From an uncultured bacterium (GTDB lineage: Bacteria > Patescibacteriota > Minisyncoccia > UBA6257 > GWB1-50-10), in assembly GCA_963722655.1 (NCBI GenBank), contig CAVRNT010000001.1:17447-81446 (forward strand): a stretch of 64,000 nt of DNA, read 5' to 3'. How positions within the stretch are numbered: the stretch's first letter is position 1; every line of letters begins with the position of its first letter. Both the position numbers and the translations under genes were made by a program. Below, one piece after another: positions 33,612-64,000 of this stretch. The notes under the pieces are model-generated. The model made no database searches. It worked only from the letters and a program-made list of their open reading frames with translations, and was not told the DNA's origin.

Positions 33612-34513
33612 GCATGGAAAACAATTTCGAGGCGCGGGTGATGGATGAGATGCTGATGGACCAGGCCTATGAGAGGGCGGAGAACATCATCGAGAAGGAC
33701 GCAATAAAGATAGACAATCAGTTCAGCTACCACAAAGACGCTGATCGTGACAGGGCATACGTCGAAAAAATGGAAGATGAATTCGAACGAGAGGCCACGC
33801 CGGAAGAAAAAGAGGTCAGTAAGATTGCAACCGTCTTCGAAACGCTGGTTTACACTCACGGCGAGCTAAGCAACTGGTTCGGCAAGGATGCCGTCACCAT
33901 CAAAACCTCCCGATACGACGACATCGTGAACAAAATAGACAGCTTGGTGGAATTCAGGAAAGAACCGGGGTCGGCTTCCTACCTCGGCCTTGCCATAGAC
34001 GTCACGATGAGCAAGGAGATGGACGAAAAGCTGGAAAGCATAAGAAAGCAGATAGACAGCGGAAAATTATCGGAAGTGAAGTACTTTCACTCAAAGCACA
34101 TCGGGATGACCGGTACGCTGCATGATGTCCCTCGCGTGATCGCCGCGGCCAACCAAGGGACCATTAGGCAGCTCACCGAACTTTGGATGGAAAACGACAA
34201 TAAGGCCTTGGCCAACCACTGGATCCAGTTCCAGATGCTGGAGAGTATGTTGCTGCAGGCCAAGACGTTCAAACGATACGCCGAATCCAGAAACAAACCG
34301 GATGTGGCTCAAACGTACGACTCGGCCATCACCACTCTGGAAGCCATCCTTTTCGACAAAAAGCGGGAGGTTAAAGATAGCGGCGAGAGGGATTCGGCCT
34401 TCATCGCGATCGAGGAAAGATTGAAGCACTTCGGCGAAACGCCGCAGAAAACGGCCGGTCCGGAAACCGGCCGCCGACGCCCCAAAGATACGATTAGGGT
34501 CTGGAGACCTTAA
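33608..34513 (+). CDS. hypothetical acidic/helical protein
   Basis: 301 aa with no motif recognised. Its start overlaps the trpS stop by 4 nt, so it is likely co-transcribed. Confidence 0.5.
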   Translation: MSMENNFEARVMDEMLMDQAYERAENIIEKDAIKIDNQFSYHKDADRDRAYVEKMEDEFEREATPEEKEVSKIATVFETLVYTHGELSNWFGKDAVTIKTSRYDDIVNKIDSLVEFRKEPGSASYLGLAIDVTMSKEMDEKLESIRKQIDSGKLSEVKYFHSKHIGMTGTLHDVPRVIAAANQGTIRQLTELWMENDNKALANHWIQFQMLESMLLQAKTFKRYAESRNKPDVAQTYDSAITTLEAILFDKKREVKDSGERDSAFIAIEERLKHFGETPQKTAGPETGRRRPKDTIRVWRP

Positions 34514-37500
34514 GGACTCCGAGCCAAATCGGCCAATCCTCTAATTTCGTTTCGAGTTCGGCTTCGAAGCGGTCCTTGCGGCCGAAATCGACGCTCGAGG
34601 CGTTCACTTCTCTTTTGAGGAACTCCGCATTCGCCGTGACGAGATGTTTTATCTCCTCCGGCCCGTCCACCATCAAGGCCGCCTTGTCCCTCGGCTCCAG
34701 CCCGGCGTCCTGACGCAGTCCCTGGACCATCCGGACGAGCTCCCGGAGCCACCCCTCTTCCTTGAGCTCGTGGGTTATGTTCGCGTCCAGGACGAAGCTC
34801 TCTTTGAGCTTGGTGTCGAAAATCACTTTTTTAACGTTCACCTCGTCGGCGAGTATGGCTTGCAGCTCGCCAGCGTTGCTTAATTCCTTATTCTTAATTC
34901 TCAATTCGCCAAGCGGCTGGCGGACTTTGATGCCGAGTTCCGCCCGCTTCGCGAGGACGGCGCTCGCCAGATCGCGAACCGCTTTCATATCCTTTACGAT
35001 TTTTTTATCGGCTTGCCCCGAGCCGCATCGAAGGGGCCAGTCCGCCAAATGAACGCTCATGTCTTGTTCCTTGTCTCTTGTTTCTTGTTCCCGCAGAGAC
35101 AGGTACAGCGCATCGGCGAAGAAGGGCGTGAAGGGCGCGATGATCTTGCTTATTTCGTTTAAAACATGACCGAGCGTCGACGATGCGGCCGCATGATCTT
35201 TCTTTCCGTCAGCCGACGGATCCGGTTTTTGGAAACGCCGCCGAGAGCGCCGGATATACCACCGCGAAAGGTCATCCACGAGGCGCTCGATCTCGTTCGC
35301 CCCGCCGTTCACGTCGTAACGGTTCAGGTCTTTGGTGACTGCTGCCGTGGTCTCGGTGAGGCGGGCCAAGATCCATTCGTCCAATGCGTTCTTGTTTCTT
35401 GCTTCCTGTCCCTTGCCTCTGACGCTCCTATCCGCATAGGTGTTCCAAAAAACATAGGAGTTATAGAGCATCGTGAAGAACTGGCGCGAGTTCTTTCCGA
35501 GTTCCGCCTCGTCGAACTTCTTCGGCTCGCCTGGCGGGTTCACGGTGTAAAAATACCAGCGGACGGCGTCCACGCCGTATTTCTGGATCATGTCCCACGG
35601 GCTCACGACGTTCCCCTTGGACTTGGACATCTTCTGGCCGTTCTTGTCCAAAACGAGACCGAGAGAGATGACGTTCTTGTACGAGGCACCGCGGCCGAGG
35701 ATGGTCGAGACGGCGAGGAGGGTGTAGAACCAGCCCCGGGTCTGGTCGATCCCCTCCACGATGTAGTCGGCCGGATAGGCCGTGAGCTTTTCAAAAGGAT
35801 AATGGTCCTCGGCGAAGGGCATCGCGCCCGAGTCGAACCAAACATCGATCACCTCCTTCACACGGACCATCTTCCCGCCGCATTTTTCGCACTTGAACTT
35901 CACCGCATCCACGTACGGTCTATGGAAATCGGCCTCGCCGGTCTCGTTCCTTGGCACCGGAACGGAGGAAGTGACAAGGTGGCCGGCAAGGGCCAGAAAT
36001 TCCCCGGCGAAGAGCTCTCCCTGTTTCTCCCGTTCCCGAACGGCCCGGAAAGAATCCCAACCCCCGAGAACGCTCGCGAGCATCCAGAGCGAATGTTCGT
36101 GGCCGACGACGAGAATCGTTTTCCCCTTATGCGTTTTTTCCATCTCTGCCACGAAAGCGTAGGCTCGCTTCCGAACATCGGTAAGCGTCTCGCCGCCCTT
36201 GGGCGACGTCGTGAACTTGTCCTGAAGCATCTTAAAAAGAGCGTGGTATTCGCGCAAGGGATGGCCGTTCATGTCGCCGGCACTTATCTCGCGGAGGCGC
36301 GGGTCGAACTTAACGGTCTTAAGGCCGAGCGCCTTCTTCAAGATCTCGGCGGTCTCTTTGGTACGCGTGAGGTCGGACGAAAAGCAGAGGTCCACGCACT
36401 CATTCTTCAAGGCGCGCGCCGTTTTCTCCACCTGCGCCCGGCCTTTCACCGTCAGGTGATATTTCTTTCTCTCCGGCCAGGAATCGATGATGTCCAAGAT
36501 TATCTCCTCGGCCTCGCCGTGGCGGACCAAGATATAGCGATTGCCGGAACTCTTGTGCCCGGCCGCTAGGTCCGCGCCGTTCCCGATAACCTTTGAGTGG
36601 CCGCATTTTTCGCAAACCCAAACGGGCAGAGGTGTTCCCCAATACCTTTCGCGCGATATCGCCCAATCCTTCACGTCCTTGAGCCACTCGCCGAAACGCC
36701 CCTCCTTGATGTTCTCCGGCACCCAGTTGATACCCTCGTTCTCGGCGATCATCTCCGCTTTGAGCCGGCTCATACCGATGAACCAGGAATCGCGGGCGTA
36801 GTAGAGAAGCGGCGTGCCGCACCGCCAGCAGAAGGGATAATCGTGCGTGTATTTCTCCTCGCTGAAGAGGCGGTTCTCCTTTTTCAAATGGTCCAGGATC
36901 TTCCTCTCCGTTTCCGGCGATTTGACGTAAAGCCCGGCGAAATTCTTCACCTCGGCGACGAATTTCCCCTCGGGCGTCACGGTATGGAATGTCGGGAGGC
37001 CGATCTTGAGGCCCAGCTTGTAGTCGTCCTCGCCGTACATCACGGCGGTGTGGACGACACCCGTGCCGTCTCCCGTCGTCACGAAGCCCGCCTCGTAGAT
37101 CCTGTAACTCGTCTTGTTCTTCAGGCTCGGGACGGCGAAGAGCGGTTCGTATTCCAGCCCGACGAGTTTTTCGCCCTTCACGGTCCCGAGATCGGCGAAG
37201 TTCTCGTGGAGGACGCTGCCTAAACGCGCTTTGGCCAAGATGTAGGTCTCGCCGCTTTGGACCCGGACGATCCTGTAGTCGATGTTCTTCCCGACCGCCA
37301 AAGCGACGTTGCCGGGCAGCGTCCAGGGCGTCGTCGTCCAGGAAAGGACGAAGGTGTTGCCCTCGACCGCCAAGCGGCCGATCTTCTGGCCTTTCTTCAG
37401 GCGGAACTTGATGAAGACCGAGGTATCGGTCGTCTCCCGGTATCCTTGGGCGAGCTCGTGCGAAGAGAGCGCCGTCCCGCACCGCGGGCACCACGGCACG

Positions 37501-38030
37501 ACCTTGTGGCCCTTGTACAAAAGCTTCTTATTCCACGCCTCTTTCAAGATGGACCAAACCGATTCGATATAGTCGTTCGCATAGGTGACGTAGGGGTGGG
37601 CCATGTCCAACCAAAAGCCCATCCGTTCCGTGAGGCGTTCCCATTCGTCCTTGTACTGCCAGACGGACTCTTTGCACTTCTCGTTGAAGGCCGCAATGCC
37701 GAACTTCTCTATATCCTTCTTGGACTTGAGACCCAATTTTCTCTCCACCTCGAGCTCCACCGGCAGACCGTGTGTGTCCCACCCCGCCCGGCGCGGAACG
37801 TAGTAGCCGGCCATCGTCTTGTAGCGCAGGATGATGTCTTTGAACGAGCGGGAGAGGACGTGATGGATGCCCGGCTGGCCGTTCGCCGTGGGCGGACCTT
37901 CGTAGAAGACGAACTTTTTGCCCTTCTCGCGGTTCTTGAGGGACTTCTCGAAGACCCTGTTCGCCTGCCAGGATTTCAGGACCTTTTCCTCCACCTCCGG
38001 CAGGGAGAATTTTTCTAGGCGCTCTAACAT
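34494..38030 (-). CDS. ileS: isoleucine--tRNA ligase carrying an in-frame histidine-phosphatase (PGAM-like) domain insertion
   Basis: 1178 aa. PPTANGQPGIHH (HIGH region), WAISRERYWG (IleRS-specific), KMSKSKGN. Residues about 490-700 (YILVRHGEAE ... SSDLTRTKETAEI ... ILVVGHEHSLW) form a histidine-phosphatase-superfamily domain. It is inserted between the RYWG/Zn-knuckle region and HRPYVDAVKF. Confidence 0.9.
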   Translation of the reverse strand: MLERLEKFSLPEVEEKVLKSWQANRVFEKSLKNREKGKKFVFYEGPPTANGQPGIHHVLSRSFKDIILRYKTMAGYYVPRRAGWDTHGLPVELEVERKLGLKSKKDIEKFGIAAFNEKCKESVWQYKDEWERLTERMGFWLDMAHPYVTYANDYIESVWSILKEAWNKKLLYKGHKVVPWCPRCGTALSSHELAQGYRETTDTSVFIKFRLKKGQKIGRLAVEGNTFVLSWTTTPWTLPGNVALAVGKNIDYRIVRVQSGETYILAKARLGSVLHENFADLGTVKGEKLVGLEYEPLFAVPSLKNKTSYRIYEAGFVTTGDGTGVVHTAVMYGEDDYKLGLKIGLPTFHTVTPEGKFVAEVKNFAGLYVKSPETERKILDHLKKENRLFSEEKYTHDYPFCWRCGTPLLYYARDSWFIGMSRLKAEMIAENEGINWVPENIKEGRFGEWLKDVKDWAISRERYWGTPLPVWVCEKCGHSKVIGNGADLAAGHKSSGNRYILVRHGEAEEIILDIIDSWPERKKYHLTVKGRAQVEKTARALKNECVDLCFSSDLTRTKETAEILKKALGLKTVKFDPRLREISAGDMNGHPLREYHALFKMLQDKFTTSPKGGETLTDVRKRAYAFVAEMEKTHKGKTILVVGHEHSLWMLASVLGGWDSFRAVREREKQGELFAGEFLALAGHLVTSSVPVPRNETGEADFHRPYVDAVKFKCEKCGGKMVRVKEVIDVWFDSGAMPFAEDHYPFEKLTAYPADYIVEGIDQTRGWFYTLLAVSTILGRGASYKNVISLGLVLDKNGQKMSKSKGNVVSPWDMIQKYGVDAVRWYFYTVNPPGEPKKFDEAELGKNSRQFFTMLYNSYVFWNTYADRSVRGKGQEARNKNALDEWILARLTETTAAVTKDLNRYDVNGGANEIERLVDDLSRWYIRRSRRRFQKPDPSADGKKDHAAASSTLGHVLNEISKIIAPFTPFFADALYLSLREQETRDKEQDMSVHLADWPLRCGSGQADKKIVKDMKAVRDLASAVLAKRAELGIKVRQPLGELRIKNKELSNAGELQAILADEVNVKKVIFDTKLKESFVLDANITHELKEEGWLRELVRMVQGLRQDAGLEPRDKAALMVDGPEEIKHLVTANAEFLKREVNASSVDFGRKDRFEAELETKLEDWPIWLGVLKVSRP

Positions 38031-51445: not shown

Positions 51446-52723
51446 ATGATTAAAAATAAATTAGTTTGGCGCACAGAAATGCGCCACGTGTCGGACTTGG
51501 TGCCGAATCCTCGGAATCCCAGGACCATGAGCCCGAGTCAGACGGAAGCGCTCAAGAAAAGTCTTAGTAAATTCGGGGTGGTGGAACTTCCGGTTATAGA
51601 TGCGGATAATCAGGTGATCGCCGGACACCAGCGATTAATGGCTCTCCGTCTTCTCGGCCGGGAAAACGAGGAAATCCCGGTCCGAGTGCCGAACAGAAAG
51701 CTCACGAAGCGCGAGTATGACCAATATATGCTCACGAGCAACCGTGTGCACGGCGAATTCGATTGGGACAAACTCGCCGAGAATTTCGATATCGATGCCA
51801 TCCTCGCGAGTGGATTCGAGGATGCGGATCTCTCGCTCATATTTGACGACGTTTCCGTAGAAGACGACGAATTCAGAATCGACGATGAATTAAAGAAGAT
51901 AAAGAAAACGGACGTTAAACCTGGAGATTTATACCAACTTGGCTCTCACCGGATCATTTGTTCCGATTGCACGGACCCTAAATCGGTCAAAAGACTCATG
52001 GATGGCAAGAAGGCCGGTGTTATCCTCCAAGACCCGCCTTTCAACATAAATCTGAGCTATAACGCCGGAATCGGCGGCAAAGGCAATTACGGCGGCACCA
52101 TGGACGATTCAAAATCGGACGAGGAATATGAATCGCTTCTCCGCAAGGCGCTGGCGAACGGCCTCTCCGCCTGTGCGAAAGACGTGCATGTATTCACGTA
52201 CCACGATCCCCGATATGCGTGGCTTCTCCAAAAATTATATAAGGAACTCGGCATTACGTACCGGCGAACTTGTCTATGGATCAAGAATAATTCCACACCG
52301 ACACCAAAAGTGGCTTTCAACCGACAGTACGAACCCGCACTTTATGGAACGATCGGGAAACCGTACCTTTCTGAACGCGCTTTCAATTTCTCGGAAATCC
52401 TCAATCACGATGTCGGAAGCGGTAATCGCACGATCGACGACATCTATGATCTCATCGATATATGGCTCGTGAAGCGGCTGAGTGGATCGGAATACGAACA
52501 TCCGACCGAGAAACCGCCGATGCTCCACGAACGGCCGCTACGTCGCTGTTCGAAGCCGGGAGATATCATCCTTGATCTCTTCTCAGGATCGGCGAGCCTT
52601 ATGGTCGCTTGCCATCAATTGAAGCGGATCGCGTATATGGTCGAACGCGAGCCGATTTTCGTGCAGCTTGCGCTAAATCGTTATGAAAAACTCACGGGAC
52701 AAAAAGCAAAAAGAATCGCCTAA
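51446..52723 (+). CDS. ParB-like nuclease domain fused to beta-class N6-adenine/N4-cytosine DNA methyltransferase
   Basis: N-terminus RHVSDLVPNPRNPRTMSPSQTEALKKSL...VIAGHQRLMAL is ParB/Srx-like. DPPF motif IV (ILQDPPFNINLSY). C-terminal motif I FSGSAS. Confidence 0.85.
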   Translation: MIKNKLVWRTEMRHVSDLVPNPRNPRTMSPSQTEALKKSLSKFGVVELPVIDADNQVIAGHQRLMALRLLGRENEEIPVRVPNRKLTKREYDQYMLTSNRVHGEFDWDKLAENFDIDAILASGFEDADLSLIFDDVSVEDDEFRIDDELKKIKKTDVKPGDLYQLGSHRIICSDCTDPKSVKRLMDGKKAGVILQDPPFNINLSYNAGIGGKGNYGGTMDDSKSDEEYESLLRKALANGLSACAKDVHVFTYHDPRYAWLLQKLYKELGITYRRTCLWIKNNSTPTPKVAFNRQYEPALYGTIGKPYLSERAFNFSEILNHDVGSGNRTIDDIYDLIDIWLVKRLSGSEYEHPTEKPPMLHERPLRRCSKPGDIILDLFSGSASLMVACHQLKRIAYMVEREPIFVQLALNRYEKLTGQKAKRIA

Positions 52724-53456
52724 GCCCGGCGCAATCTGGCAGCTCGGGGTACATCGCCTCGCCTACGGGGATTGCCGCGACAAGAATCTTTTGGAAAGAC
52801 TCATTGGCAAAGAAAAAATCAACCTCGTCTGTTGCGACGTGCCGTACGGCGTGGATGTCGCCGCCTCGAAGCGGAACTTCCGCACCCTTTCCAAAGACAA
52901 GGACATCGCGAACGACCAAACCCAATCGAATGCGGAATACCGGTCATTCAGCCGCGAATGGCTTCAAGCAATCACGCCATCCCTGGCAAGTAAAAACTCC
53001 GCCTATATCTTCAACGCCGATAAGATGGTTTGGCCACTCCGAGACGGGATGATCGACGCCGGATTCAAGGTGGCCCAGCTCCTCGTGTGGGTGAAATCGC
53101 AGGCGGTTATCGGCCGACTCGATTACGCCCCGCAGCATGAGCTTATTCTCTACGGCTGGCACGGCACTCATAAATACCGCCGGTCAAAAGACAGAAGCGT
53201 TCTGTTCTATCCGAGGCCATCTAAGAGCAAACTGCATCCGACGACCAAGCCCATCGGCCTTATCCGTCGTCTCATTCTCAACTCATCGGAAATCGGGAAT
53301 GCAGTCTACGACGGATTTCTCGGAAGTGGAACCACTCTTCTCGCTTGCGAGCAGACGAAACGCAGATGCCTTGCGGTGGAAATTGATTATGAATATTGCC
53401 AAACGGCAATCCATCAGTGGGAACGACTGACGGGCAAAAAAGCAAAACGACTATGA
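52683..53456 (+). CDS. beta-class DNA methyltransferase (N6-adenine/N4-cytosine)
   Basis: Motif IV CCDVPYGV (a DPPY variant). C-terminal motif I FLGSGTT. It overlaps the preceding MTase by 41 nt. Confidence 0.85.
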   Translation: MKNSRDKKQKESPKPGAIWQLGVHRLAYGDCRDKNLLERLIGKEKINLVCCDVPYGVDVAASKRNFRTLSKDKDIANDQTQSNAEYRSFSREWLQAITPSLASKNSAYIFNADKMVWPLRDGMIDAGFKVAQLLVWVKSQAVIGRLDYAPQHELILYGWHGTHKYRRSKDRSVLFYPRPSKSKLHPTTKPIGLIRRLILNSSEIGNAVYDGFLGSGTTLLACEQTKRRCLAVEIDYEYCQTAIHQWERLTGKKAKRL

Positions 53457-53941
53457 AAAAGAACGACCAGACGAAGAAACTTATTATCGAGCAGCTGCAC
53501 AAAACACCGATAGTGGAAGTGGCGTGTCAGAAAATCGGCATATCGAGGATGACCTTTTACCGCTGGAAGAAAGACGAGCCGGAATTCGCGAAGCTTGCGG
53601 ACGAGGCGATTTTCGAAGGCCAATCCCTCATGAACGATCTAGCGGAAAGCCAGCTCATCGGCGCGGTCAAGGAAAGGAATCTGCCCGCAATCATATATTG
53701 GCTCCGGCACCACCATCCCGATTATGCGAATAAGCTTGAAATCAAGCACGCGATTCAGGACGAAAATCTGACTCCGGAACAGGAAGCGCTCGTCCGGGAA
53801 GCTTTAAGACTAGCCACCTTGAGTGAAGAAAAGGTCGAAATCAACCCAGAAGAAAAAATCGATGAATTACAAGAACATAATCCCGCCGGAACTGACGGAG
53901 GCGATGATAAAGGACCGGAAGGTGCGGGTGGCGATCACTAA
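53453..53941 (+). CDS. putative terminase small subunit / HTH DNA-binding protein
   Basis: HTH region IVEVACQKIGISRMTFYRWKKDEPEF. Its position is directly upstream of terL. The start is taken at Met20, overlapping the MTase stop (ATGA). Confidence 0.45.
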   Translation: MKKNDQTKKLIIEQLHKTPIVEVACQKIGISRMTFYRWKKDEPEFAKLADEAIFEGQSLMNDLAESQLIGAVKERNLPAIIYWLRHHHPDYANKLEIKHAIQDENLTPEQEALVREALRLATLSEEKVEINPEEKIDELQEHNPAGTDGGDDKGPEGAGGDH

Positions 53942-55323
53942 AGAGAGCCACTGGTACTTCTTCCATTTTTACTTCGCCCACTACGTCAAATATCCGACGG
54001 CGAAATTCCAAGCCGAGATATTCGAATTGACCGAAAAGGACAACGGCAATTTCTTCGTCGTCGCTTTCCGCGGAAGCAGCAAATCCACAATCCTCACGAC
54101 CTCATATCCGATCTGGGCGATCTTGGGAAAACAGCAGAAAAAATTCGTGCTCATCCTCTGCCAAACGCAGAGCCAGGCGAAACAGCATATGATGAATCTC
54201 CGCCGGGAGCTTGAAAGCAACGCCATTCTCAAAAGGGATCTGGGTCCGTTCCGCGAAGAATCCGACGAATGGGGTTCGTCGTCTTTGGTGTTTTCGAATA
54301 TGAACGCCCGCATCACCGCCGCCTCGAGCGAACAGAGCATTCGTGGTTTGCGGCACAACCAGCACCGGCCGGATCTCATCATCGGAGACGACGTGGAGGA
54401 TTTGGCATCCACCAAGACCCGGGAAGGCAGGAACAAGACGTACCAGTGGCTCACGGGCGAGGTTATCCCGTCCGGCGACCGAAGCACCCGGATCGTAGTC
54501 GTGGGGAACCTTCTCCACGAAGATTCTCTCCTCATGCGGATCAAGGAAGATATCGGGAATCAGAAGATCGACGGGGTATTCAAGGAGTACCCGCTCATGC
54601 TGAACGGCGAGATTCTGTGGCCGGGGAAGTATCCGTCCATCGACGATATCCAAGATGAAAAAAGGAAGGCGGGAAACGAATTCGCCTGGGAGCGGGAGTA
54701 CATGCTCCGCATCGTGCCGGACGAAGAACAGGCGATCCTTCGCGAGTGGATCCAATATTACGATGAGCTCCCTTCTGGAGAGACCGATTGCCAGGGGTAT
54801 CCGAAGCACGTCGAGGTGCGTATCGGCGTCGATCTGGCGATCTCGAAGCGCGATACCGCCGATTACACCGCCATGGTTCCCGGGTGGCTCTACGGAGATG
54901 ACAGGGATACGAGAATCTACATCCTACCGGATATTATTAACCGCAGAATATCGTTCCCTGAAACGGTCGATCTCTGCAAAGCACTCAACAGGAAATACGA
55001 GGAGGAGCAATCAAATCCCACGTTTGTCATTGAGGATGTCGCATACCAAAGATCTCTCCCTCAACAGCTTGAGAGATGAGGGAATCCGGGACGTGAAAAC
55101 CACCCATCCGGGCAATCAGGACAAGCGGAGTCGTCTCATACTCACCGCGAACGTCATCAAGAACGGCAAGGTGAAGTTTCCGAAACAAGGTGCCGAAGGG
55201 CTCATAAACCAGATCGTTCACTTCGGCGTCGAGAAACACGACGATCTCGCCGACGCGTTCTCGAACCTCGTCCTGAGCGTCATAGAAGATCCGCCGTCCG
55301 TTCCGAGAATATGGCTGCTTTAG
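53862..55323 (+). pseudogene. terL: phage terminase large subunit, interrupted by a +1 frameshift near 55075
   Basis: Frame A (to 55079) has the ATPase Walker A FRGSSKST, Walker B LIIGDDVED, and nuclease motifs I and II (RIGVDLAISKRD, FVIEDVAYQ). Frame B (55076-55323) continues with ...IVHFGVEKHDDLADAFSNL, which is nuclease motif III. The N-terminal start is uncertain. Confidence 0.7.
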
Positions 55324-56819: not shown

Positions 56820-57732
56820 TTACTTGTTGTATTCGTAGCTCTGCCTGATAAGGGCCGTCACGGCGTCAATATCTTCGTCGCGGCTAAGTCTCACTTCATA
56901 GTCGCCATTGCCCCAATGACCGATGGCTTTCGGTTTCGTAAGATCTCGCGCCAGTCCCAGGGGATCGATGAGATTTCCGCTCGGAACATTAAGAAAGATT
57001 TTGAGTGCATCCTTAGAAACTACGATATCCACGAAATTCGTCGTCAGCTTGTATGCGATATACTTTGCCTTAGGTTCTTCGGTAATTGATTCATCAAGAG
57101 AGGTGATTTTCTCTTTAATGGCCGAGAAAAGCTCTTGGATGTGCGGGCTGGCGGTCTTTAAGATGGTCTTCGATGGTGTGTTGGATTTTTTCCTTAAATT
57201 CGCCTTTCTGTTTTTCTATTTTCTCAAAAATCTCTGAGGTTGAGATTTTCACCTTGCGTTGCACTTCGGGGTCAACGAGAAGGATATTGTTTTCATACAT
57301 GCGATACCGCAGAAGCTCAATGTCCATCGGTAGAAGATCAGCGGTATCAAGATCGAATTTATTGTAGCTCTCCGCAACGCAGATCACGCGTGGCGAAGCC
57401 CAATCTATTTCAATCTTGATTTCTAATCGGTGTACTAATGCTTCAAAATCCGCTTTGTGATCCAGAAGCCAGCGGAGATATGAAAGTCCTTGGTTGATGA
57501 CGTTCTCATTCTGACCACGCTTGTATTCGATGATGACCGGAGAACCGTTGTGATCGATGCCTAGGGTATCCATGCGTCCACCGAAACTCGTTGGGTATTC
57601 GGAGGCAAGGAATATGATATCTAAAATCTCCTCAAGATTTTTCTCGAAGATTTTCTGAATATCCTTTTCAAGCCCGACTTTTACAGACGGAACCTTTCTT
57701 GCTGCATTATTGTTTATGGAATATATAGCCAT
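56820..57732 (-). pseudogene. PD-(D/E)XK (DUF91/NucS-like) nuclease family protein, split by a frameshift at a T6 homopolymer
   Basis: The 205-aa N-terminal ORF has GGRMDTLGIDHNGSPVIIEYKRGQ (D...E.K). The downstream frame, open from 57215 and ending at 56820, encodes a further 130-aa domain. The two frames overlap across the ttttt-t run at 57186-57191. Confidence 0.55.
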
Positions 57733-57986: not shown

Positions 57987-58748
57987 ATGGAATTTAATAT
58001 GAGAAAAACAAGAGAATTTTTTGGTAAGTTAGATTGGAAACTTATTTTATTTCCGATTGTATTCCTGTTATCGGCCTATGCATCGTATCTTCTACTTAGA
58101 TCATACTTCTCCCCAGCATTACGTCCCAGTATTATCTTTTTGATGGTGCTGGCATCTGTGACCATAGCCTTCGTTTTAACTGGCCTTATTTTTGCAATCT
58201 TCATATTGTGTCTGCTCACATTATTTGCGCCAATTAACAGCCACTTTTTTAATAAGTATTTAAAGACGGTTAAGCAGGACGCCTCGGCGGGAGTAGCTAT
58301 TATTCTCGGACGCCCTAATTGGTTTAAATTCAAAGGGTGGTATAAAATCAACTTTACTAAACGCGAGATGGAGTTAATTTTCGGATACTTAGGAAAAAGA
58401 TGGTTGGACTTTCGTGTTTATCCGCACGCAAGTTTCGAGGATATCGAGAAGATAATGGGCGATTCTAGTATCCGGGAAGTTTTCTTCTGCGGTCATGGAG
58501 ATTCTCACACCTTCAGACTAACCACCGATGAAACCATCTTTTATTGTGACTTTAAGGGTCCAAAATACAAGAAAGATTTCGTACATCAGGTACATTGTGG
58601 AACAAAAGATGGCAGCGATAGAAGATTAATCGATTATGTTGTGCCTGAAGAAAATCGCGGCCAATGTTTCTATTTTCCTAAATCAATTACCTCTCGCGAT
58701 ATCAGAAAAGAATTTGAGAGAAGAATAGAAAGATTGACTAGCCATTAA
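57987..58748 (+). CDS. two-TM membrane protein with conserved His/Cys-containing C-terminal domain (hypothetical)
   Basis: 253 aa. Two TM helices (residues 20-90). The C-terminal soluble domain has VFFCGHGDSHTF...IFYCDF...VHQVHCGTKDG. Confidence 0.5.
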   Translation: MEFNMRKTREFFGKLDWKLILFPIVFLLSAYASYLLLRSYFSPALRPSIIFLMVLASVTIAFVLTGLIFAIFILCLLTLFAPINSHFFNKYLKTVKQDASAGVAIILGRPNWFKFKGWYKINFTKREMELIFGYLGKRWLDFRVYPHASFEDIEKIMGDSSIREVFFCGHGDSHTFRLTTDETIFYCDFKGPKYKKDFVHQVHCGTKDGSDRRLIDYVVPEENRGQCFYFPKSITSRDIRKEFERRIERLTSH

Positions 58749-58761
58749 ACATGGCTAACTT

Positions 58762-61700
58762 TTATTCCGGGAATTTACCACCCGAAATATCGAAGTACTT
58801 ATCAAAGAAACGCGTCAATTTATTTAGAACACTCTCTCGTTTATGCGTACGCTCTCCGGTCGGTGAAAAACGCGATACGGGCGGAAGCACTTTTGTCAGC
58901 GCCGTTCCGGTTGAGGCGACTACGCCGTCACGGAAAGAATTACGCACAAAAGTGTATGTTGCATTACGATCAAGATTTTCCTTCGCGATAATGGTATCGA
59001 GATCCTCGATCTTTTTCTTATCCACAAATTCGTGCCAATCTTCATCGACAATTGAATGAACATCGAGTGATGAGATGAACTGATTGATCAGCTCTTTTTT
59101 ATTACGCAGCTCTACACTGGAATCAATGGCTTTATTGATGTCGATCAAAAGCTCGCGATTTTTCGTGTGACCCTCGTGATATTTTTTGATGAGCGTCAGC
59201 ACGTAATCGATATTGATTTCCACCTGCTTGATCAATTCCATTTCAAACACGACATCATCGATAATACTTTCCTTTTCCTTCTCGACGCCTTTTCGAAATT
59301 CAGCGTAGAGATCGATATACATACTGTGATAATCCTGAATATCACGCTCAGTCAAAATCTCATTGCCAGCAAATTCATCGAAAGCCATTAGAATATTACG
59401 CAACCGCAAGATCGCCCCGTATAGCTTTATAAAATCTTTTTGGTTTTGCTCCCCGACGATCTGCTCTCCGGCAGGGAATTTCTTCATGAGTTCATCCACT
59501 AAGCTCACGTATCCATAAACCTCTTTATCAACGTCTTTATAACCGTTGTAATAGTCGGCGTATGATTTCAAAAGAATGATACCGCCCGCCTCCTTATCGC
59601 CAAAGAGAGCCACTGATTCATTGGTCGCTCGTTCTAAATTGCGAAAGCAAACGATATTTCCAAAAGTTTTTACACTGTTCAGAATTCGATTTGTCCGTGA
59701 ATATGCCTGCAAGAGGCCATGCAATCGCAGATTCTTATCCACCCAGAGTGTGTTGAGCGTCGTTGCGTCAAAGCCGGTCAGAAACATATTAACGACGATC
59801 AGGATGTCGATCTCGCGATTCTTGACCCTCAAACTGACATCCTTGTAATAATTTTGGAATTTGTCGGATGAAGTGTCGTACGACGTTCCGAACATTGCAT
59901 TGTAATCCTCGATGGCCTTCTCCAAAAAATCCCTTGAGCTGGCATCGAGACCGCTGGTATCCTCCGAATTTTCATCAACAACACCGTCCGCTTCCTCTTC
60001 GTTCACTCCGAAACTGTAGATGAGTGCTACTTTGAGACGTTTATCGCTCGGGACGTCCGTAAGTTGTTTCTTAAACTCGGCATAGTATTTTTTGGCAACA
60101 TCTATAGATGCGGTAGCAAAGATCGAGTTGAATCCAGCGAGCCTTCTTTCGTTCAATTTATAGAAGCTATTGCGTTTGGTCTTCTGATCGAAATGCTCAC
60201 GGATATAACGCACGATATTAGTAAGTCGATCCGGCGCAGAAAGTACCGCTTCGCGATCGATATCGCTCACTTTCTTGTCCTCTATATTTTCCGCCTCACG
60301 CACCGTAGAAACGTAGTCAACCTTAAACGGCAGAACATTTCTATCATTGATGGCATTTACGATGGTATAGGTATGCAGTTTTTCACCAAAGGCCTGTTCG
60401 GTGGTCTTTAAATCAGGGCGCCCACCAGAAGAGGCATTTACCGCAAAGATCGGCGTGCCGGTAAATCCAAAAAGGTGATAATTTTTGAACGCCTCCGTGA
60501 TGGCATCGTGCATATCGCCAAATTGGGAACGGTGACATTCGTCGAAAATAATCACGACATGCTGGTTAAAAATAGCATGGCCGACATTCCGTTCGATGAA
60601 ACGGTCGAGTTTTTGGATGGTGGTAATAATGATTCGCGCATTCGGATTCTCGAGTTGACGCTTCAGAATGGCGGTAGAGGTATTACTGTTTGCTGCTCCT
60701 TTTTCAAATTTGTCGTATTCGCGCATCGTCTGATAATCCAAGTCCTTACGATCCACCACAAAAAGTACCTTATCAATATAGGGAAGTTTGCTCGCAAGTT
60801 GCGCCGTCTTAAAACTGGTAAGCGTTTTACCGGATCCGGTAGTGTGCCAGATATATCCTCCGGCCTCAACAGTGCCAAGCTTCTTGTAATTCGTACTGAT
60901 TTCAATGCGACTCAAGATGCGCTCAGTCGCAACGATCTGATAGGGGCGCATCACGAGCAGTTGCCAATCGGCAGTAAATACACAATATCGGGTTAGGATT
61001 TTTAAAAGGACATGCTTCGCAAAAAATGTTTTCGCAAAATCCATCAAATCCGTAATCGGCGCATTTGTCGCATCAGCCCACCAGCTCGTGAATTCAAAAC
61101 TATTGCTCGTACGCTTTCCCTTTTTTACCGCACCCTCATTCATCTCCTTAATATGCGTGTTGCGCGTGGTGTTGCTGTAATACTTGGTATGTGTGCCGTT
61201 TGAAATGACGAATATCTGGACATATTCAAAAAGACCCGATGATGCCCAAAAACTTTCCCGCTGATAACGGTTGATTTGGTTGAATGCTTCCTGAATGGCC
61301 ACGCCACGACGCTTCAGCTCGATGTGCACCAGCGGCAATCCATTTACAAGCACGGTTACATCATATCGATTAGCGCGTTGTCCTTCGTCAGTCGCATATT
61401 GGTTGATAACCTGTAAATCGTTGTCATGGATATTATCTTTCTTCAGAAGATAAATATTTTTTACCGCGCCGTCATCGCAAGTGAGATTCTTGATATAATC
61501 CTCCTGAATCGTCGCAGTTTTTTCTTCAATGCTCTGATTGGGGTTGGCGAGTTCTCCCGCAAAAAACGATTCCATTCGGCATCGCTAAAAGTGAAATCGT
61601 TTAACCTCTCCAGTTCACGGCGCAAATTCGCGATAAGGTCTTCCTCGCTCGCGATAGGCAAAAATTCGTAAGCCTGAGCCTTAAGCTCACCGATGAACGC

Positions 61701-61817
61701 GTGTTCAAGCTCCGCCTCGCTTTGATAGGTTATCGGATGTGATTTGCTCGGCATATATTTGGCCACTACCGTGCTTTCAGGATTTTCAACGATCAAATTA
61801 ATTTGATGCTCTTCCAT
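58762..61817 (-). pseudogene. hsdR: type I restriction enzyme R subunit (EcoR124I-like), interrupted at a T6 homopolymer
   Basis: The N-terminal 118-aa ORF (61461..61817) aligns with the EcoR124I HsdR N-terminus (YQSEAELE...FSDAEWNRF). The 937-aa ORF (58762..61575) continues (ELANPNQSI..., RYDVTVLVNGLPLVHIELKRRG nuclease motif, TGSGKT, DECHRSQ helicase motifs). The frames join at tttttt (61561-61566). One extra T would give NRFFAGEL. Confidence 0.8.
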
Positions 61818-61818
61818 G

Positions 61819-62286
61819 TTAAGAGAAGGTTAAAAGTTTAGTTCGATAATATTCATACTGCGATTGACGAGCAGAAATCTCGGCGGGAAGGCCAATGGAA
61901 ATATCGGTTACGAGCACATCAAACTTGTCTAAGATAGAAACGATACGTTCCTGCTCGACAAGTGGTGGGAGAGGAATTCTATATTTTTTGACTTCAGTAT
62001 CCGATATCGCTGGGTAGTTTGTCCCTCTTTGTGCATTTTCTACATACTTAGAAAACCTCCGCAGACCTAGCTGATGGTATATATAATTTGTTAGGGTTTC
62101 AGTGCTCTTAGGGCGCAAAACACAAAATCCAGTACTACAGATTTGTCCATCATATTGATCAGTAATAATACAAAAACGTCCCAGCGTTGGTCTTGTTGTG
62201 CCAAAAATTACGTCGCCAGTTTTTACAATTTTTTGTGCTCGACTTGGCGCCGTCTCATTATCAATTTTTTGCGTGTCCGTGATCAT
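61819..62286 (-). CDS. hsdS: type I R-M specificity subunit, C-terminal half (TRD2 + distal conserved region)
   Basis: IPLPPLVEQERIVSILDKFDVLVTDISIGLPAEISARQSQYEYYRTKLLTF is the conserved HsdS C-terminal region. The start is taken at MITDTQ. Confidence 0.7.
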   Translation of the reverse strand: MITDTQKIDNETAPSRAQKIVKTGDVIFGTTRPTLGRFCIITDQYDGQICSTGFCVLRPKSTETLTNYIYHQLGLRRFSKYVENAQRGTNYPAISDTEVKKYRIPLPPLVEQERIVSILDKFDVLVTDISIGLPAEISARQSQYEYYRTKLLTFS

Positions 62287-62354
62287 GTGTTTTTCTCTGT
62301 CTACCGAAGACAAATCAATGTAATAGAATTGCCCTCCTATATTTTCTGACCATT

Positions 62355-63074
62355 TTATTGTTTAGTTATTTCACAAATTTCACTAAGCGGAGCCCACCGT
62401 ACCCCCCCCTCTTCGTCAAACGTTAAAAGCTCCGAGCGGTAATACTCGTATTGCTTCTTTCTTGCTTCTAGCTCTGCTTCTAGCTCTGCTTCTAGCTCTG
62501 CTTCTAGCTCTGTAAAATTATCTAAAATATTTATAATCTCTTTTTGGATGTCAAGCGGCGGGAGAGGGATTTTTATTTTTGCAAACCGCTTTTTTGAAAC
62601 GTTGAAACGCGTAACTCCACTCGCAGTTTTTGCAATTTGCTTTCTCATTTGTTCATCCCTAAATAAATATTTTGAGAACTCCGGTAAAAGTAGGGTTTTG
62701 TCGTTCAAGCGAAAGCCAAAACAAAAACTGTTGAGATATAACGACCCATCGACTTTCTTTGTTAAGACAGAAGACATGCCACATTCATTCGGTGTTTCAG
62801 ACGAACCAGTAAACAACACATCGCCGTACTCGATTTTGTTTTGTGATTCACCCTTACCTACCCTGACAAAGTCTTTAATATCGGTTTTTACAGCAATATT
62901 AGAAAACACATTCATGTAGGTAACAAATTTGGCGTTACCATCGTGAAAATCATCTTTACTCTTTCCAGTTAATCCACCATAAAACTCACCTAATTCACCT
63001 AGTGTCCTAAACTCCACTCCGTCCGGGCAGAGCTCCGCGATCAGTTTTTCAATTTTGCTTTGGCGTTTTGTCAT
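62355..63074 (-). CDS. hsdS: type I R-M specificity subunit, N-terminal half (TRD1 + central conserved region with ELEA x4 repeat)
   Basis: IPLPPLDIQKEIINILDNFTELEAELEAELEAELEARKKQYEYYR is the central conserved region. It ends shortly after TRD2 begins (VRWAPLSEICEITKQ*). The ATG overlaps the hsdM stop (ATGA). Confidence 0.75.
   Translation of the reverse strand: MTKRQSKIEKLIAELCPDGVEFRTLGELGEFYGGLTGKSKDDFHDGNAKFVTYMNVFSNIAVKTDIKDFVRVGKGESQNKIEYGDVLFTGSSETPNECGMSSVLTKKVDGSLYLNSFCFGFRLNDKTLLLPEFSKYLFRDEQMRKQIAKTASGVTRFNVSKKRFAKIKIPLPPLDIQKEIINILDNFTELEAELEAELEAELEARKKQYEYYRSELLTFDEEGGVRWAPLSEICEITKQ
62464..62511 (-). repeat. 4 x 12-bp perfect tandem repeat (gcttctagctct) encoding (ELEA)4 in the hsdS central conserved region
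   Basis: Direct reading gives four identical 12-mers at 62464-62511. Confidence 0.9.
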
Positions 63075-64000
63075 TTTGTTCCTTCTATATCTGCCACGAT
63101 ATCATCGATTGCACTGCGAAGTTTTTGTTGTCGCTCAACGATGCTGGCTATCTCCGCGTTGAGCGTCACGATGTCCACTACCTCGCGCGTGTCTTCCGCC
63201 ACCACATAGCTTGATACAGCGATGTTATAATCGTTTTCTGCGATAGCTTTGTTATTCACGAGCTTCGCAAAATATTTCATATCCTTCCGCGCGATGAATG
63301 CATTCAATATTTTCGTGCGATTCGCTTCCGTAAGCTTGTTTTTATTTCCAGCATGCAAAAATTCGGCCGAGGCGTCTATAAAAAGTGTCTTGTTATCCTT
63401 CTTACTTTTCTTCAGCACAATGATACAGGTGGCGATGGTAGTGCCAAAAAATAGGTCGTGCGGAAGTTGGATGACGGCATCGATATAGTTGTTGTCGACG
63501 AGATACTTGCGAATCTTCTGCTCTGCCCCGTTGCGGTAAAGCACGCCGGGGAATTCAACAATTGCTGCCGTGCCATTAGTGGCAAGCCACGAGAGCATGT
63601 GCATCGTGAATGCGAGGTCAGCCTTACTCTTTGGCGCAAGAATACCCGCCGGAGAAAAACGCGGATCATTAATAAGGAGCGGATTGCTGTCGCCCTCCCA
63701 ATGAATAGAATATGGCGGATTGGACACAATGGCCTCGAACGGTTCATCATCCCAATGCTTTGGGTCGATGAGTGTATCGCCGTGCTCGATATCGAACTTG
63801 CTGTAATTTATATCGTGCAAAAACATATTGATGCGGCAAAGGTTGTAGGTGGTGAGGTTGATTTCCTGCCCAAAGAAACCAATCCGCACATTTTCTTTAC
63901 CGAGGATCTTTGCGAATTTAAGGAGAAGCGAGCCAGAGCCACACGCCGGATCATACACCTTATTCACCTCCTTCTTCCCAACGATAGCGATCCGCGCCAA
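63071..64000 (-). CDS. hsdM: type I R-M N6-adenine DNA methyltransferase subunit (partial, N-terminus beyond window)
   Basis: Motif I VYDPACGSGSLLL, motif IV NPPYSIHW, and an HsdM C-terminal coiled region. The ORF runs to the window edge. Confidence 0.85.
   Translation of the reverse strand: MARIAIVGKKEVNKVYDPACGSGSLLLKFAKILGKENVRIGFFGQEINLTTYNLCRINMFLHDINYSKFDIEHGDTLIDPKHWDDEPFEAIVSNPPYSIHWEGDSNPLLINDPRFSPAGILAPKSKADLAFTMHMLSWLATNGTAAIVEFPGVLYRNGAEQKIRKYLVDNNYIDAVIQLPHDLFFGTTIATCIIVLKKSKKDNKTLFIDASAEFLHAGNKNKLTEANRTKILNAFIARKDMKYFAKLVNNKAIAENDYNIAVSSYVVAEDTREVVDIVTLNAEIASIVERQQKLRSAIDDIVADIEGTK

What the first reader, a model, noticed from the sequence alone, without database searches (positions are those of the whole stretch)
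58762..64000. EcoR124I-like (type IC) type I R-M operon with ELEA x4 tandem repeat, G8 tract, split hsdS and hsdR broken at a T6 tract
The HsdR N-terminus aligns closely with EcoR124I HsdR. In the IC family, the number of 12-bp repeats in the hsdS central conserved region (TAEL in EcoR124I/II) sets the spacer length of the bipartite recognition site. Here four perfect 12-bp repeats encode (ELEA)4 at 62464-62511, a likely hotspot for repeat-number switching of specificity. A C8/G8 homopolymer at 62402-62409 lies inside hsdS. hsdS occurs as two half-ORFs, TRD1+CCR and TRD2+distal region. hsdR is split exactly at a T6 run (61561-61566); a T7 would restore a contiguous HsdR of about 1050 aa (NRFFAGEL...). 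This is either phase variation or decay of restriction that leaves methylation.
Basis: partly seen in the sequence, partly recalled or inferred. Interest (0 to 1): 0.55.

Follow-up and report, generated by a model that had tools for sequence, protein, structure and literature searches.

The report
Broken EcoR124-type restriction-modification operon
This is an ordinary EcoR124-family (type IC) restriction-modification operon on a foreign island in a Patescibacteria genome, and its specificity and restriction genes are each broken by loss of a single C that a 99% identical intact copy elsewhere still has, so the breaks are recent damage or assembly error and not a programmed switch.

Summary
hsdM (cut by the window end), hsdS in two ORFs and hsdR in two ORFs lie on the minus strand. 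They carry four perfect 12-bp ELEA units, a G8 tract and a T6 run at the stated coordinates. HsdR, HsdM and HsdS match EcoR124I/II (E = 2e-240, 7e-110, 6e-31).

An independent contig (L082) is 99.2% identical and differs by just two indels, which are the two break points. The intact allele reads ACT-C-AAACAA in hsdS and CGT TTT TTC GCG in hsdR. Both alleles have T6, so hsdR is not broken by T-run slippage. The hsdS break lies 38 nt (12 codons) downstream of G8 and outside any repeat. G8 itself is in frame.

Comparison with 57 related operons shows two tuning devices:
- ELEA copy number ranges from 2 to 5. One natural pair differs only by one unit.
- The linker between the central conserved region and TRD2 is a repeat hotspot (G8-13, C9, (AG)10, (ACAG)8-12; 14 of 57 loci, 11-fold enriched). 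Six of these 14 loci are out of frame there.

Both devices are already known from EcoR124I/II, NgoAV and the Atack survey. Four frameshifts cluster in the island and none was found in 35 kb of core genes. Reads are needed to separate real decay from assembly error.

The parts
63071..64000 (-). hsdM, C-terminal 309 codons. The gene runs off the window end. Its stop overlaps the hsdS start in ATGA.
   Evidence: PF02384 N6_Mtase E=7.7e-94. EcoR124II M protein 7bst_D E=6.7e-110, chain residues 210-516. TIGR00497 hsdM E=2e-137. L081 shows the HsdM_N part beyond the window end.
62355..63074 (-). hsdS N-terminal ORF (239 aa): N-terminal conserved part, TRD1, central conserved region, linker and the first 15 residues of TRD2, then a premature stop.
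   Evidence: PF01420 E=2e-19. Three-frame translation. Homologs are 395-440 aa and full length.
62464..62511 (-). Four perfect 12-bp units GAGCTAGAAGCA, encoding (ELEA)4, in the first coiled-coil helix (D1) of HsdS. This is the spacer-length ruler of type IC enzymes.
   Evidence: Copy number across 58 loci: 2 in 1 locus, 3 in 33, 4 in 23, 5 in 1. P0083 and P0106 differ only by one unit. Role of the TAEL repeat in EcoR124I/II: PMC3874165.
62402..62409 (-). G8 tract (coding strand) in the linker between the central conserved region and TRD2, encoding part of E-G-G-V. It is in frame here.
   Evidence: The same G8 with near-identical flanks is in frame in L004 and L073. G8 is also present in the intact allele L082. 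Repeats are 11-fold enriched in this linker across relatives, 14 of 57 loci, P about 1e-10.
62363..62364 (-). hsdS frameshift site. One C present in the intact allele (ACT C AAA CAA) is missing between these two bases. It is not within a repeat.
   Evidence: L082 versus window alignment. The repaired protein aligns without gaps to the solved HsdS 3okg across the junction.
61819..62361 (-). Remainder of hsdS (most of TRD2 plus the distal conserved region), open in the -1 frame. The listed ORF starts at a TTG at 62313. Its stop lies 1 nt before the hsdR ATG.
   Evidence: PF01420 E=3e-18.. dN/dS 0.18 against L081.
61560..61566 (-). hsdR frameshift site. The T6 run is at 61561-61566. The C that follows it in the intact allele (CGT TTT TTC GCG) is missing before the G at 61560.
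   Evidence: L082; L081 reads TTTTTTA in frame; 79 relatives in frame.
61561..61817 (-). hsdR 5' part, codons 1-85 of the intact gene. The ORF then runs on out of frame to 61461.
   Evidence: Aligns to EcoR124I HsdR residues 3-87 once repaired. Identical to P0362 residues 1-85.
58762..61560 (-). hsdR 3' part, codons 86-1018. The 937-aa ORF begins at an out-of-frame ATG formed by the conserved Trp codon.
   Evidence: EcoR124I HsdR 2w00/4bec E=2.4e-240. PF04313, PF18766, PF22679 and PF12008 EcoR124_C. PADLOC REase_I 1161 bits.

Best explanation
This is a type IC (EcoR124-family) restriction-modification operon with gene order hsdM-hsdS-hsdR. It lies in a low-GC island acquired by a Patescibacteria genome, next to a prophage remnant and a candidate defence gene.

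In its intact form, seen in the 99.2% identical contig L082, HsdS is one 418-aa protein and HsdR is 1018 aa. That HsdS carries two tuning devices known from this family:
1. A 12-bp repeat in the first coiled-coil helix, four ELEA units here. By analogy with EcoR124I/II, its copy number sets the distance between the two half-sites.
2. A G8 tract in the linker before TRD2. Gain or loss of one G would stop translation right after the central helix. The result would be a TRD1-only half subunit that, as in NgoAV and the EcoR124I and EcoDXXI truncations, should dimerise and recognise a palindromic site.

In the window's copy, neither device explains the broken genes. hsdS and hsdR have each lost a single C at a position that is not a slippage tract. 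As the sequence stands, restriction is off, because HsdR is cut after residue 85. Only HsdM plus a 239-aa TRD1 half-subunit could be made, whatever the G-tract length.

Shown here: family membership, the anatomy, the exact lesions, the existence of the intact allele, the variation of repeat number and linker repeats among relatives, and purifying selection on all parts until recently.

Inferred: the function of the half subunit, the spacer length, and that G8 actually slips. Whether the two lesions are real mutations or assembly errors is open, roughly even odds.
For: - Family: HsdR matches EcoR124I HsdR at E=2.4e-240 and, once repaired, aligns without gaps from residue 3. HsdM matches the EcoR124II M protein at E=6.7e-110. 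HsdS matches EcoR124II S at E=5.6e-31. The EcoR124_C domain is present. Gene order is M-S-R with ATGA overlap between hsdM and hsdS.
- Lesions: L082 (Logan ERR10755942) is 99.2% identical over 4002 nt with 29 mismatches and only two indels, one C at each break. P0362 is 1011/1018 identical to the repaired HsdR.
- Not tract slippage: T6 is present in both alleles. 79 of 79 relatives are in frame at the site. The other 119 best homologs are 1010-1033 aa.
- Recent function: dN/dS against L081 is 0.09 for hsdR, 0.13 for hsdS-N and 0.18 for hsdS-C.
- Repeat ruler: 2-5 copies among 58 loci. Units are identical within a locus but differ by synonymous changes between loci. P0083 and P0106 differ by one unit only.
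- Linker repeats: 14 of 57 loci against 1.3 expected. Six of these are out of frame, with TRD2 continuing in another frame.
- G7 or G9 would give stops 8-14 codons after the tract.
- Literature: TAEL repeats and gap length, homodimeric truncated S subunits and NgoAV in PMC3874165; the NgoAV poly-G switch in PMC9577141; repeats in hsdS always lie between the TRDs in PMC7383803.
Against: - No tract-length variation was seen in this lineage. G8 occurs in both the window and L082. The G7 in L081 is unreliable because that contig has about 30 random single-base deletions.
- G8 is below the nine-base cut-off used in the REBASE survey (PMC7383803), although NgoAV works with 6-9 G (PMC9577141).
- No methylation or expression data exist.
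- Real mutation and assembly error cannot be separated. Both lesions are single-base deletions, the source is a 379-kb metagenome contig, and the sibling contig L081 is clearly error-rich.
- Against a uniform error rate: 24 core ORFs covering about 35 kb show full domain coverage, while the roughly 17-kb island has four frameshifts.
Confidence: 0.85

Rival explanations
1. Assembly or consensus error. The organism really carries intact hsdS and hsdR, as L082 does, and the two missing C's, like the breaks in the neighbouring DUF5655 and terminase genes, are artefacts of a metagenome assembly in a region shared by several co-occurring strains.
For: - Both lesions are single-base deletions relative to a 99.2% identical intact allele.
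- dN/dS of 0.09-0.18 shows the genes were functional until very recently.
- The sibling contig L081 from another assembly has about 30 random single-base deletions, so error-rich assemblies of this population exist.
- At least three variants of the island exist, 0.8% and 3.3% apart. Such mixtures can corrupt a consensus locally.
Against: - No broken gene was seen among 24 core ORFs (about 35 kb) with full Pfam coverage on the same contig.
- The terminase break is not at a homopolymer.
- The prophage is degenerate in any case: the terminase is followed directly by a recombinase, with no structural genes.
Confidence: 0.45
2. Real, recent inactivation. In this strain hsdR and TRD2 of hsdS were knocked out by point deletions. 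What remains is a methyltransferase with a TRD1 homodimer specificity, or a fully decaying defence island.
For: - Four frameshifts cluster in the island (terminase, DUF5655/PDC-S18, hsdR, hsdS) and none was found in the core.
- The island contains an obviously truncated prophage.
- Truncated type IC S subunits are known to work as homodimers (PMC3874165). Natural half or split hsdS genes occur in relatives, for example L017 and L019.
Against: - The breaks are very young. The nearest intact allele is only 0.7% diverged and there is no sign of relaxed selection.
- Two independent hits in one operon in so short a time need either selection for loss or an artefact.
Confidence: 0.45
3. Phase variation of restriction through the T-run in hsdR (T6 off, T7 on), or programmed -1 ribosomal frameshifting on U UUU UUG, so that full-length HsdR is still made.
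For: - Adding one T restores NRFFAGEL.
- In the zero frame the site reads cgU UUU UUG, a formally slippery heptamer (read directly from the sequence).
Against: - The intact allele has T6 plus C, not T7.
- L081 reads T6 plus A in frame.
- 79 of 79 relatives are in frame, with runs of only 3-7 T at the site.
- There is no stimulatory RNA structure downstream (z=0.26).
- A six-base A/T run is far below the lengths that give useful switching rates (criteria in PMC7383803).
Confidence: 0.04

Closest known systems
EcoR124I / EcoR124II (type IC prototype, plasmid R124)
   Same: - All three subunits are clear homologs over their full lengths.
- Gene order is hsdM-hsdS-hsdR.
- HsdS has a 12-bp, four-residue repeat in the first coiled-coil helix. 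Its copy number distinguishes EcoR124I (2 copies, N6) from EcoR124II (3 copies, N7) (PMC3874165).
- A natural pair differing by one repeat unit exists in this clade.
   Different: - The repeat unit is ELEA or LEAE, not TAEL, and there are four copies. Literature examples have two or three. Here four copies occur in 23 of 58 loci.
- hsdR starts 1 nt after the hsdS stop, which leaves no room for the separate hsdR promoter that, from my own knowledge, EcoR124I has.
- The host is a Patescibacteria chromosome island, not an enterobacterial plasmid.
- hsdS and hsdR are frameshifted in this copy.
NgoAV of Neisseria gonorrhoeae (type IC with a poly-G tract in hsdS)
   Same: - A poly-G tract lies at the end of the TRD1-plus-central-helix part of hsdS.
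- A one-base change switches between a fused full-length HsdS and a truncated TRD1-only HsdS that acts as a homodimer on a palindromic site (PMC9577141, PMC3874165).
- The window's hsdS is annotated as two ORFs, like hsdS1 and hsdS2.
- Many gonococcal copies also carry additional inactivating mutations (PMC9577141).
   Different: - Here the tract (G8) is in the full-length frame, and the split comes from a separate lost C 38 nt (12 codons) downstream.
- No tract-length polymorphism was seen among the three available copies.
- The specificities are unknown.
Repeat-containing hsdS genes surveyed in REBASE (Atack et al., PMC7383803)
   Same: - That survey reports repeats in 7.8% of hsdS genes, always between the two TRDs, including G(n), AG(n) and tetranucleotide tracts. 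It predicts switching between full-length and truncated HsdS.
- The relatives found here show the same pattern: G8-13, C9, (AG)10 and (ACAG)8-12, in or out of frame.
   Different: - The relatives here are mostly uncultured environmental lineages: Patescibacteria, Omnitrophota, Bacteroidales and others.
- About 25% of this HsdR-defined clade carries a linker repeat.
- The window's G8 falls just under the survey's nine-base cut-off.

Membership tests
Type IC restriction-modification (EcoR124 family) | HsdR homologous to EcoR124I HsdR over its whole length, including the EcoR124_C helical domain | tested here: met
   E=2.4e-240 against 2w00/4bec, covering chain residues 88-1036. The repaired N-terminus aligns without gaps from residue 3. 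PF12008 E=2e-65.
Type IC restriction-modification (EcoR124 family) | HsdM homologous to the EcoR124 M subunit | tested here: met
   7bst_D E=6.7e-110, much stronger than the EcoKI M match at 1e-06. Only the C-terminal 309 residues lie in the window.
Type IC restriction-modification (EcoR124 family) | HsdS with the order TRD1, central helix, TRD2, distal helix, similar central and distal conserved regions, and a four-residue (12-bp) repeat in the central helix | tested here: met
   Both conserved regions end in QYEYYR..LLTF. There are four ELEA units. The EcoR124II S subunit (7bst_A) matches at E=5.6e-31.
Type IC restriction-modification (EcoR124 family) | Gene order hsdM-hsdS-hsdR | tested here: met
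   The same order holds in the related loci.
Type IC restriction-modification (EcoR124 family) | Subunit complementation and antibody cross-reactivity with EcoR124I, the historical criteria (PMC3874165) | not testable with these tools
   Needs experiments.
Phase-variable hsdS with a repeat tract (NgoAV-like) | Frameshift-prone repeat located between the two TRDs | tested here: met
   G8 at 62402-62409 lies in the linker after LLTF. Repeats occupy the same position in 14 of 57 relatives.
Phase-variable hsdS with a repeat tract (NgoAV-like) | A change of one repeat unit switches between full-length and TRD1-only HsdS | tested here: met
   In silico, on the intact allele G8 gives 418 aa, while G7 and G9 hit stops 8-14 codons later. 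In the window's own copy the downstream lesion makes every tract length give a truncated product.
Phase-variable hsdS with a repeat tract (NgoAV-like) | Tract length differs among otherwise near-identical copies | tested here: inconclusive
   G8 occurs in the window and in L082. G7 occurs in L081, but that contig has about 30 random deletions. A metagenome scan for this linker allele found nothing.
Phase-variable hsdS with a repeat tract (NgoAV-like) | Methylation specificity changes with tract length | not testable with these tools
   Needs methylome data.
Phase-variable hsdR through a homopolymer | On and off alleles differ in tract length | tested here: not met
   The intact allele L082 and the window both have T6. 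The difference is the following C. All 79 relatives are in frame.

The most novel reading that the evidence does not exclude
The G8 tract and the four-unit ELEA array could be active switches in Patescibacteria. One hsdS gene would then toggle between an asymmetric and a palindromic methylation specificity, and between spacer lengths. That would be a phase-variable methylome in an ultra-small episymbiotic bacterium. The window's copy, with hsdR knocked out and a TRD1-only HsdS, would be a real restriction-less methyltransferase and not a dead gene.
Probability: 0.15. Interest if true: 0.4.

Novelty: new member of a known kind. Interest (0 to 1): 0.2.

Why it matters
- For annotation: this locus should be recorded as a type IC operon with two single-base lesions, and as intact in a sister strain. 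It should not be recorded as a phase-variable hsdR or as a two-gene hsdS.
- For biology: it adds little that is new. Repeat-number control of spacer length and repeat-driven switching between full-length and half HsdS are both established.
- The modest added value is comparative. In an HsdR-defined clade spread across many uncultured phyla, about a quarter of hsdS genes carry a frameshift-prone repeat in the same linker. The ELEA array also shows concerted evolution, with 2-5 copies. The known type IC tricks are therefore widespread outside host-adapted pathogens.

Tried and rejected
1. The G8 tract as the cause of the hsdS split. Rejected: G8 is in frame, the GGVRW linker is conserved in homologs, and the frames switch 38 nt (12 codons) downstream.
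2. My first repair, A3 to A4 in ACTAAAC. It gave the right length and an ungapped alignment, but the natural intact allele shows that the lost base is a C: ACT C AAAC, Gln instead of Lys.
3. T7 as the ancestral hsdR state. L017 does have T7, but the near-identical allele has T6 plus C.
4. A frameshift shared between the window and L081, which would have implied a functional split hsdS under selection. Rejected once L082 showed that L081's deletion is a different base 4 nt away: ACTCAAA-AAT against ACT-AAACAAT.
5. Programmed -1 frameshifting at U UUU UUG. There is no downstream structure (z=0.26) and no conservation.
6. A uniform sequencing-error rate. It is not compatible with 0 breaks in about 35 kb of core coding sequence against 4 in the island. 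A local artefact remains possible.
7. Look-ups that found nothing: exact-sequence look-ups of the 239-aa and 937-aa products and of P0121, and a metagenome scan for TTTGACGAASAGGGGGG..GTACGG. The plasmid collection gave only distant matches at 65-69% identity.
8. Two dN/dS frames were set wrongly at first, for hsdS-C and hsdM. hsdS-C was recomputed. For hsdM only the codon-position counts are used: 36 of 50 differences fall at third positions after the frame is corrected.

Full report
**Observation**

The region holds a minus-strand operon:
- hsdM, 63071-64000, cut by the window end.
- hsdS as two ORFs: 62355-63074 (239 aa) and 61819-62313 (164 aa; the frame is open from 62361).
- hsdR as two ORFs: 61461-61817 (118 aa) and 58762-61575 (937 aa).

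The hsdM stop and the hsdS start overlap in ATGA. The hsdS stop lies 1 nt before the hsdR ATG.
- Four perfect 12-bp units encoding ELEA at 62464-62511.
- C8 on the + strand, G8 on the coding strand, at 62402-62409. This is the only G or C run of 8 or more in the window.
- A6 on the + strand, T6 on the coding strand, at 61561-61566, where the two hsdR frames meet.

**Family**

- HsdR matches EcoR124I HsdR at E=2.4e-240 and has the EcoR124_C domain. With one base added at the T-run it aligns without gaps from residue 3 of EcoR124I HsdR through the junction.
- The HsdM fragment matches the EcoR124II M protein at E=6.7e-110.
- HsdS matches the EcoR124II S subunit at E=5.6e-31.
- NCBIfam and PADLOC agree.
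- Gene order M-S-R and a four-residue repeat in the central helix complete the type IC picture. The family criteria are those given in PMC3874165.

**Where the genes are broken**

The two hsdS frames overlap only within ACTAAACAATAA, 38 nt (12 codons) downstream of the G8 tract. G8 itself is in frame: it encodes the GGVRW linker seen in many homologs. A one-base repair gives a 418-aa HsdS whose TRD2 aligns without gaps to the solved T. tengcongensis HsdS (3okg) across the junction. The split is therefore a single-base frameshift 15 codons into TRD2, not a pair of designed half-genes.

**The decisive comparison**

The window's 937-aa HsdR belongs to a 90% identity cluster with a full-length 1018-aa member, P0362. 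P0362 is 1011/1018 identical to the repaired HsdR and reads AEWNRFFAGELANP.

Its contig L082 (Logan, ERR10755942, 4002 bp) is 99.2% identical to window 62492-58493. It has 29 mismatches and only two indels, and these are exactly the two break points:
- hsdS reads ACT CAA ACA ATA AAA TGG, so it is intact (…EICEITQTIKWSEN…).
- hsdR reads CGT TTT TTC GCG.

In each gene the window has lost one C on the coding strand. Both alleles have T6, so the hsdR break is not a change in T-run length. The hsdS break is not in any repeat.

A second contig, L081 (ENA ERZ25039512), is 96.7% identical and very noisy, with about 30 random single-base deletions. It is still in frame at the hsdR site (TTT TTA). Its substitutions against the window are mostly synonymous: dN/dS is 0.09 for hsdR, 0.13 for hsdS-N and 0.18 for hsdS-C. 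The whole operon was therefore under purifying selection until very recently.

All 79 more distant relatives that cover the site keep the conserved Phe-Phe in frame. The other 119 best database homologs are 1010-1033 aa. No RNA structure follows the formally slippery U UUU UUG (z=0.26).

**Tuning device 1: the ELEA array**

I compared 80 related loci (64-85% HsdR identity) from Patescibacteria, Omnitrophota, Bacteroidales, Proteobacteria and even a Methanosarcinales bin. Fifty-seven of them have a usable hsdS central region.
- ELEA-type units number 2 (1 locus), 3 (33), 4 (23) or 5 (1) across the 57 relatives plus the window.
- Units are usually identical at the DNA level within a locus but differ by synonymous changes between loci. 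That pattern indicates ongoing expansion and contraction.
- P0083 and P0106 are identical over 408 residues except for one unit. They are a natural counterpart of EcoR124I (two TAEL units, N6) and EcoR124II (three units, N7) (PMC3874165).
- Four copies is common in this clade.

**Tuning device 2: the linker repeat**

The 120 bp after the central QYxYYR motif carry frameshift-prone repeats in 14 of 57 loci, against 1.3 expected from the rest of the same loci (11-fold enrichment, P about 1e-10). At the DNA level:
- In frame: G8 in L004 and L073, with flanks almost identical to the window's; G8 in L074; G9 in L066 and L079; (ACAG)8 in L078.
- Out of frame, with TRD2 continuing in another frame: G13 in L032, G8 in L064, G9 in L069, (ACAG)12 in L009 and L080, (AG)10 in L044.

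L062 (C9) and L067 (G8) also have linker runs, and both have a single full-length hsdS ORF.

This is the NgoAV mechanism: a poly-G tract switches between full-length HsdS and a TRD1-only half that acts as a homodimer on a palindromic site (PMC9577141, PMC3874165). It also matches the general finding that repeats in hsdS lie between the TRDs (PMC7383803).

In the intact allele, G7 or G9 would stop translation 8-14 codons after the tract. In the window's copy every tract length gives a truncated product, because of the downstream lesion.

**Context**

- The host is a Patescibacteria bacterium. Its IleRS is 100% identical to P0121 on a 379-kb contig, and its relatives are Paceibacteria and Jorgensenbacteria-like.
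- The window averages 54% GC. From about 47.3 kb onward it drops to 38-53%.
- The island holds two ParB-methyltransferase genes, a small terminase, a large terminase split by a frameshift, a serine recombinase, a split DUF5655 gene, an unknown membrane protein, and the R-M operon.
- Twenty-four core ORFs (about 35 kb) show full Pfam profile coverage. The four frameshifts are thus confined to the island.

**Verdict**

The repeat-ruler idea is supported by comparison. The idea that hsdR is switched at a T-run is not supported, and the hsdS split has nothing to do with G8.

The two lesions are either very recent inactivating mutations in a decaying defence island or local consensus errors in a metagenome assembly. 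I cannot separate these without reads and put them at about even odds. Either way, this is a new member of a well-described kind.

Noticed in passing
window 34494-38030 (-): The isoleucyl-tRNA synthetase is 1178 aa and has a histidine-phosphatase (PF00300) domain inserted at residues 500-659, inside the catalytic core. All 120 best homologs, all Patescibacteria where named, carry the same insertion, so it is a clade-wide feature and not an artefact.
   Followed up: partly
window 56820-57032 and 57115-57732 (-); L081:1512-2423: The gene next to the R-M operon encodes a NucS-like nuclease fold plus DUF5655 and matches the PADLOC candidate defence family PDC-S18 (E=1e-97). It is one 303-aa ORF in L081 but is split by a one-base difference near 57163 in the window.
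   Followed up: partly
window 53823-55323 (+): The large terminase subunit is split across two frames near 55070-55080, in GAGAGATGAGGG and not in a homopolymer. It is followed directly by a serine recombinase with no structural genes, which marks a prophage remnant. Two tandem ParB-domain DNA methyltransferase genes lie upstream at 51446-53456.
   Followed up: partly
L081:9476-10729 (beyond the window end, past hsdM): A second serine recombinase gene, fragmented by that contig's errors, lies just beyond hsdM. The cassette of PDC-S18, the unknown membrane protein and the type IC operon is therefore bracketed by two serine recombinase genes on opposite strands.
   Followed up: no
window 57987-58748 (+): This 253-aa predicted membrane protein has no family match in Pfam, PHROGs, NCBIfam or PADLOC. 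It is 100% identical at the DNA level (0 of 762 nt differ) between the window and L081, although the flanking genes differ by 1.6-6%. The pattern suggests a recent recombination patch.
   Followed up: no
L009:5370-5480 (Candidatus Velamenicoccus archaeovorus LiM, NZ_CP019384): In this complete genome, the type IC hsdS carries (ACAG)12 in the linker between the central conserved region and TRD2 and is out of frame there, with TRD2 continuing in the +1 frame. L080 has the same unit and count, and L078 has (ACAG)8 in frame.
   Followed up: partly
L017:2910-3551: A natural half-size hsdS of 214 aa (TRD1, four ELEA units and a tail like the distal conserved region) sits directly upstream of hsdR. 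It looks like a recombination between the central and distal helices that deleted TRD2.
   Followed up: no
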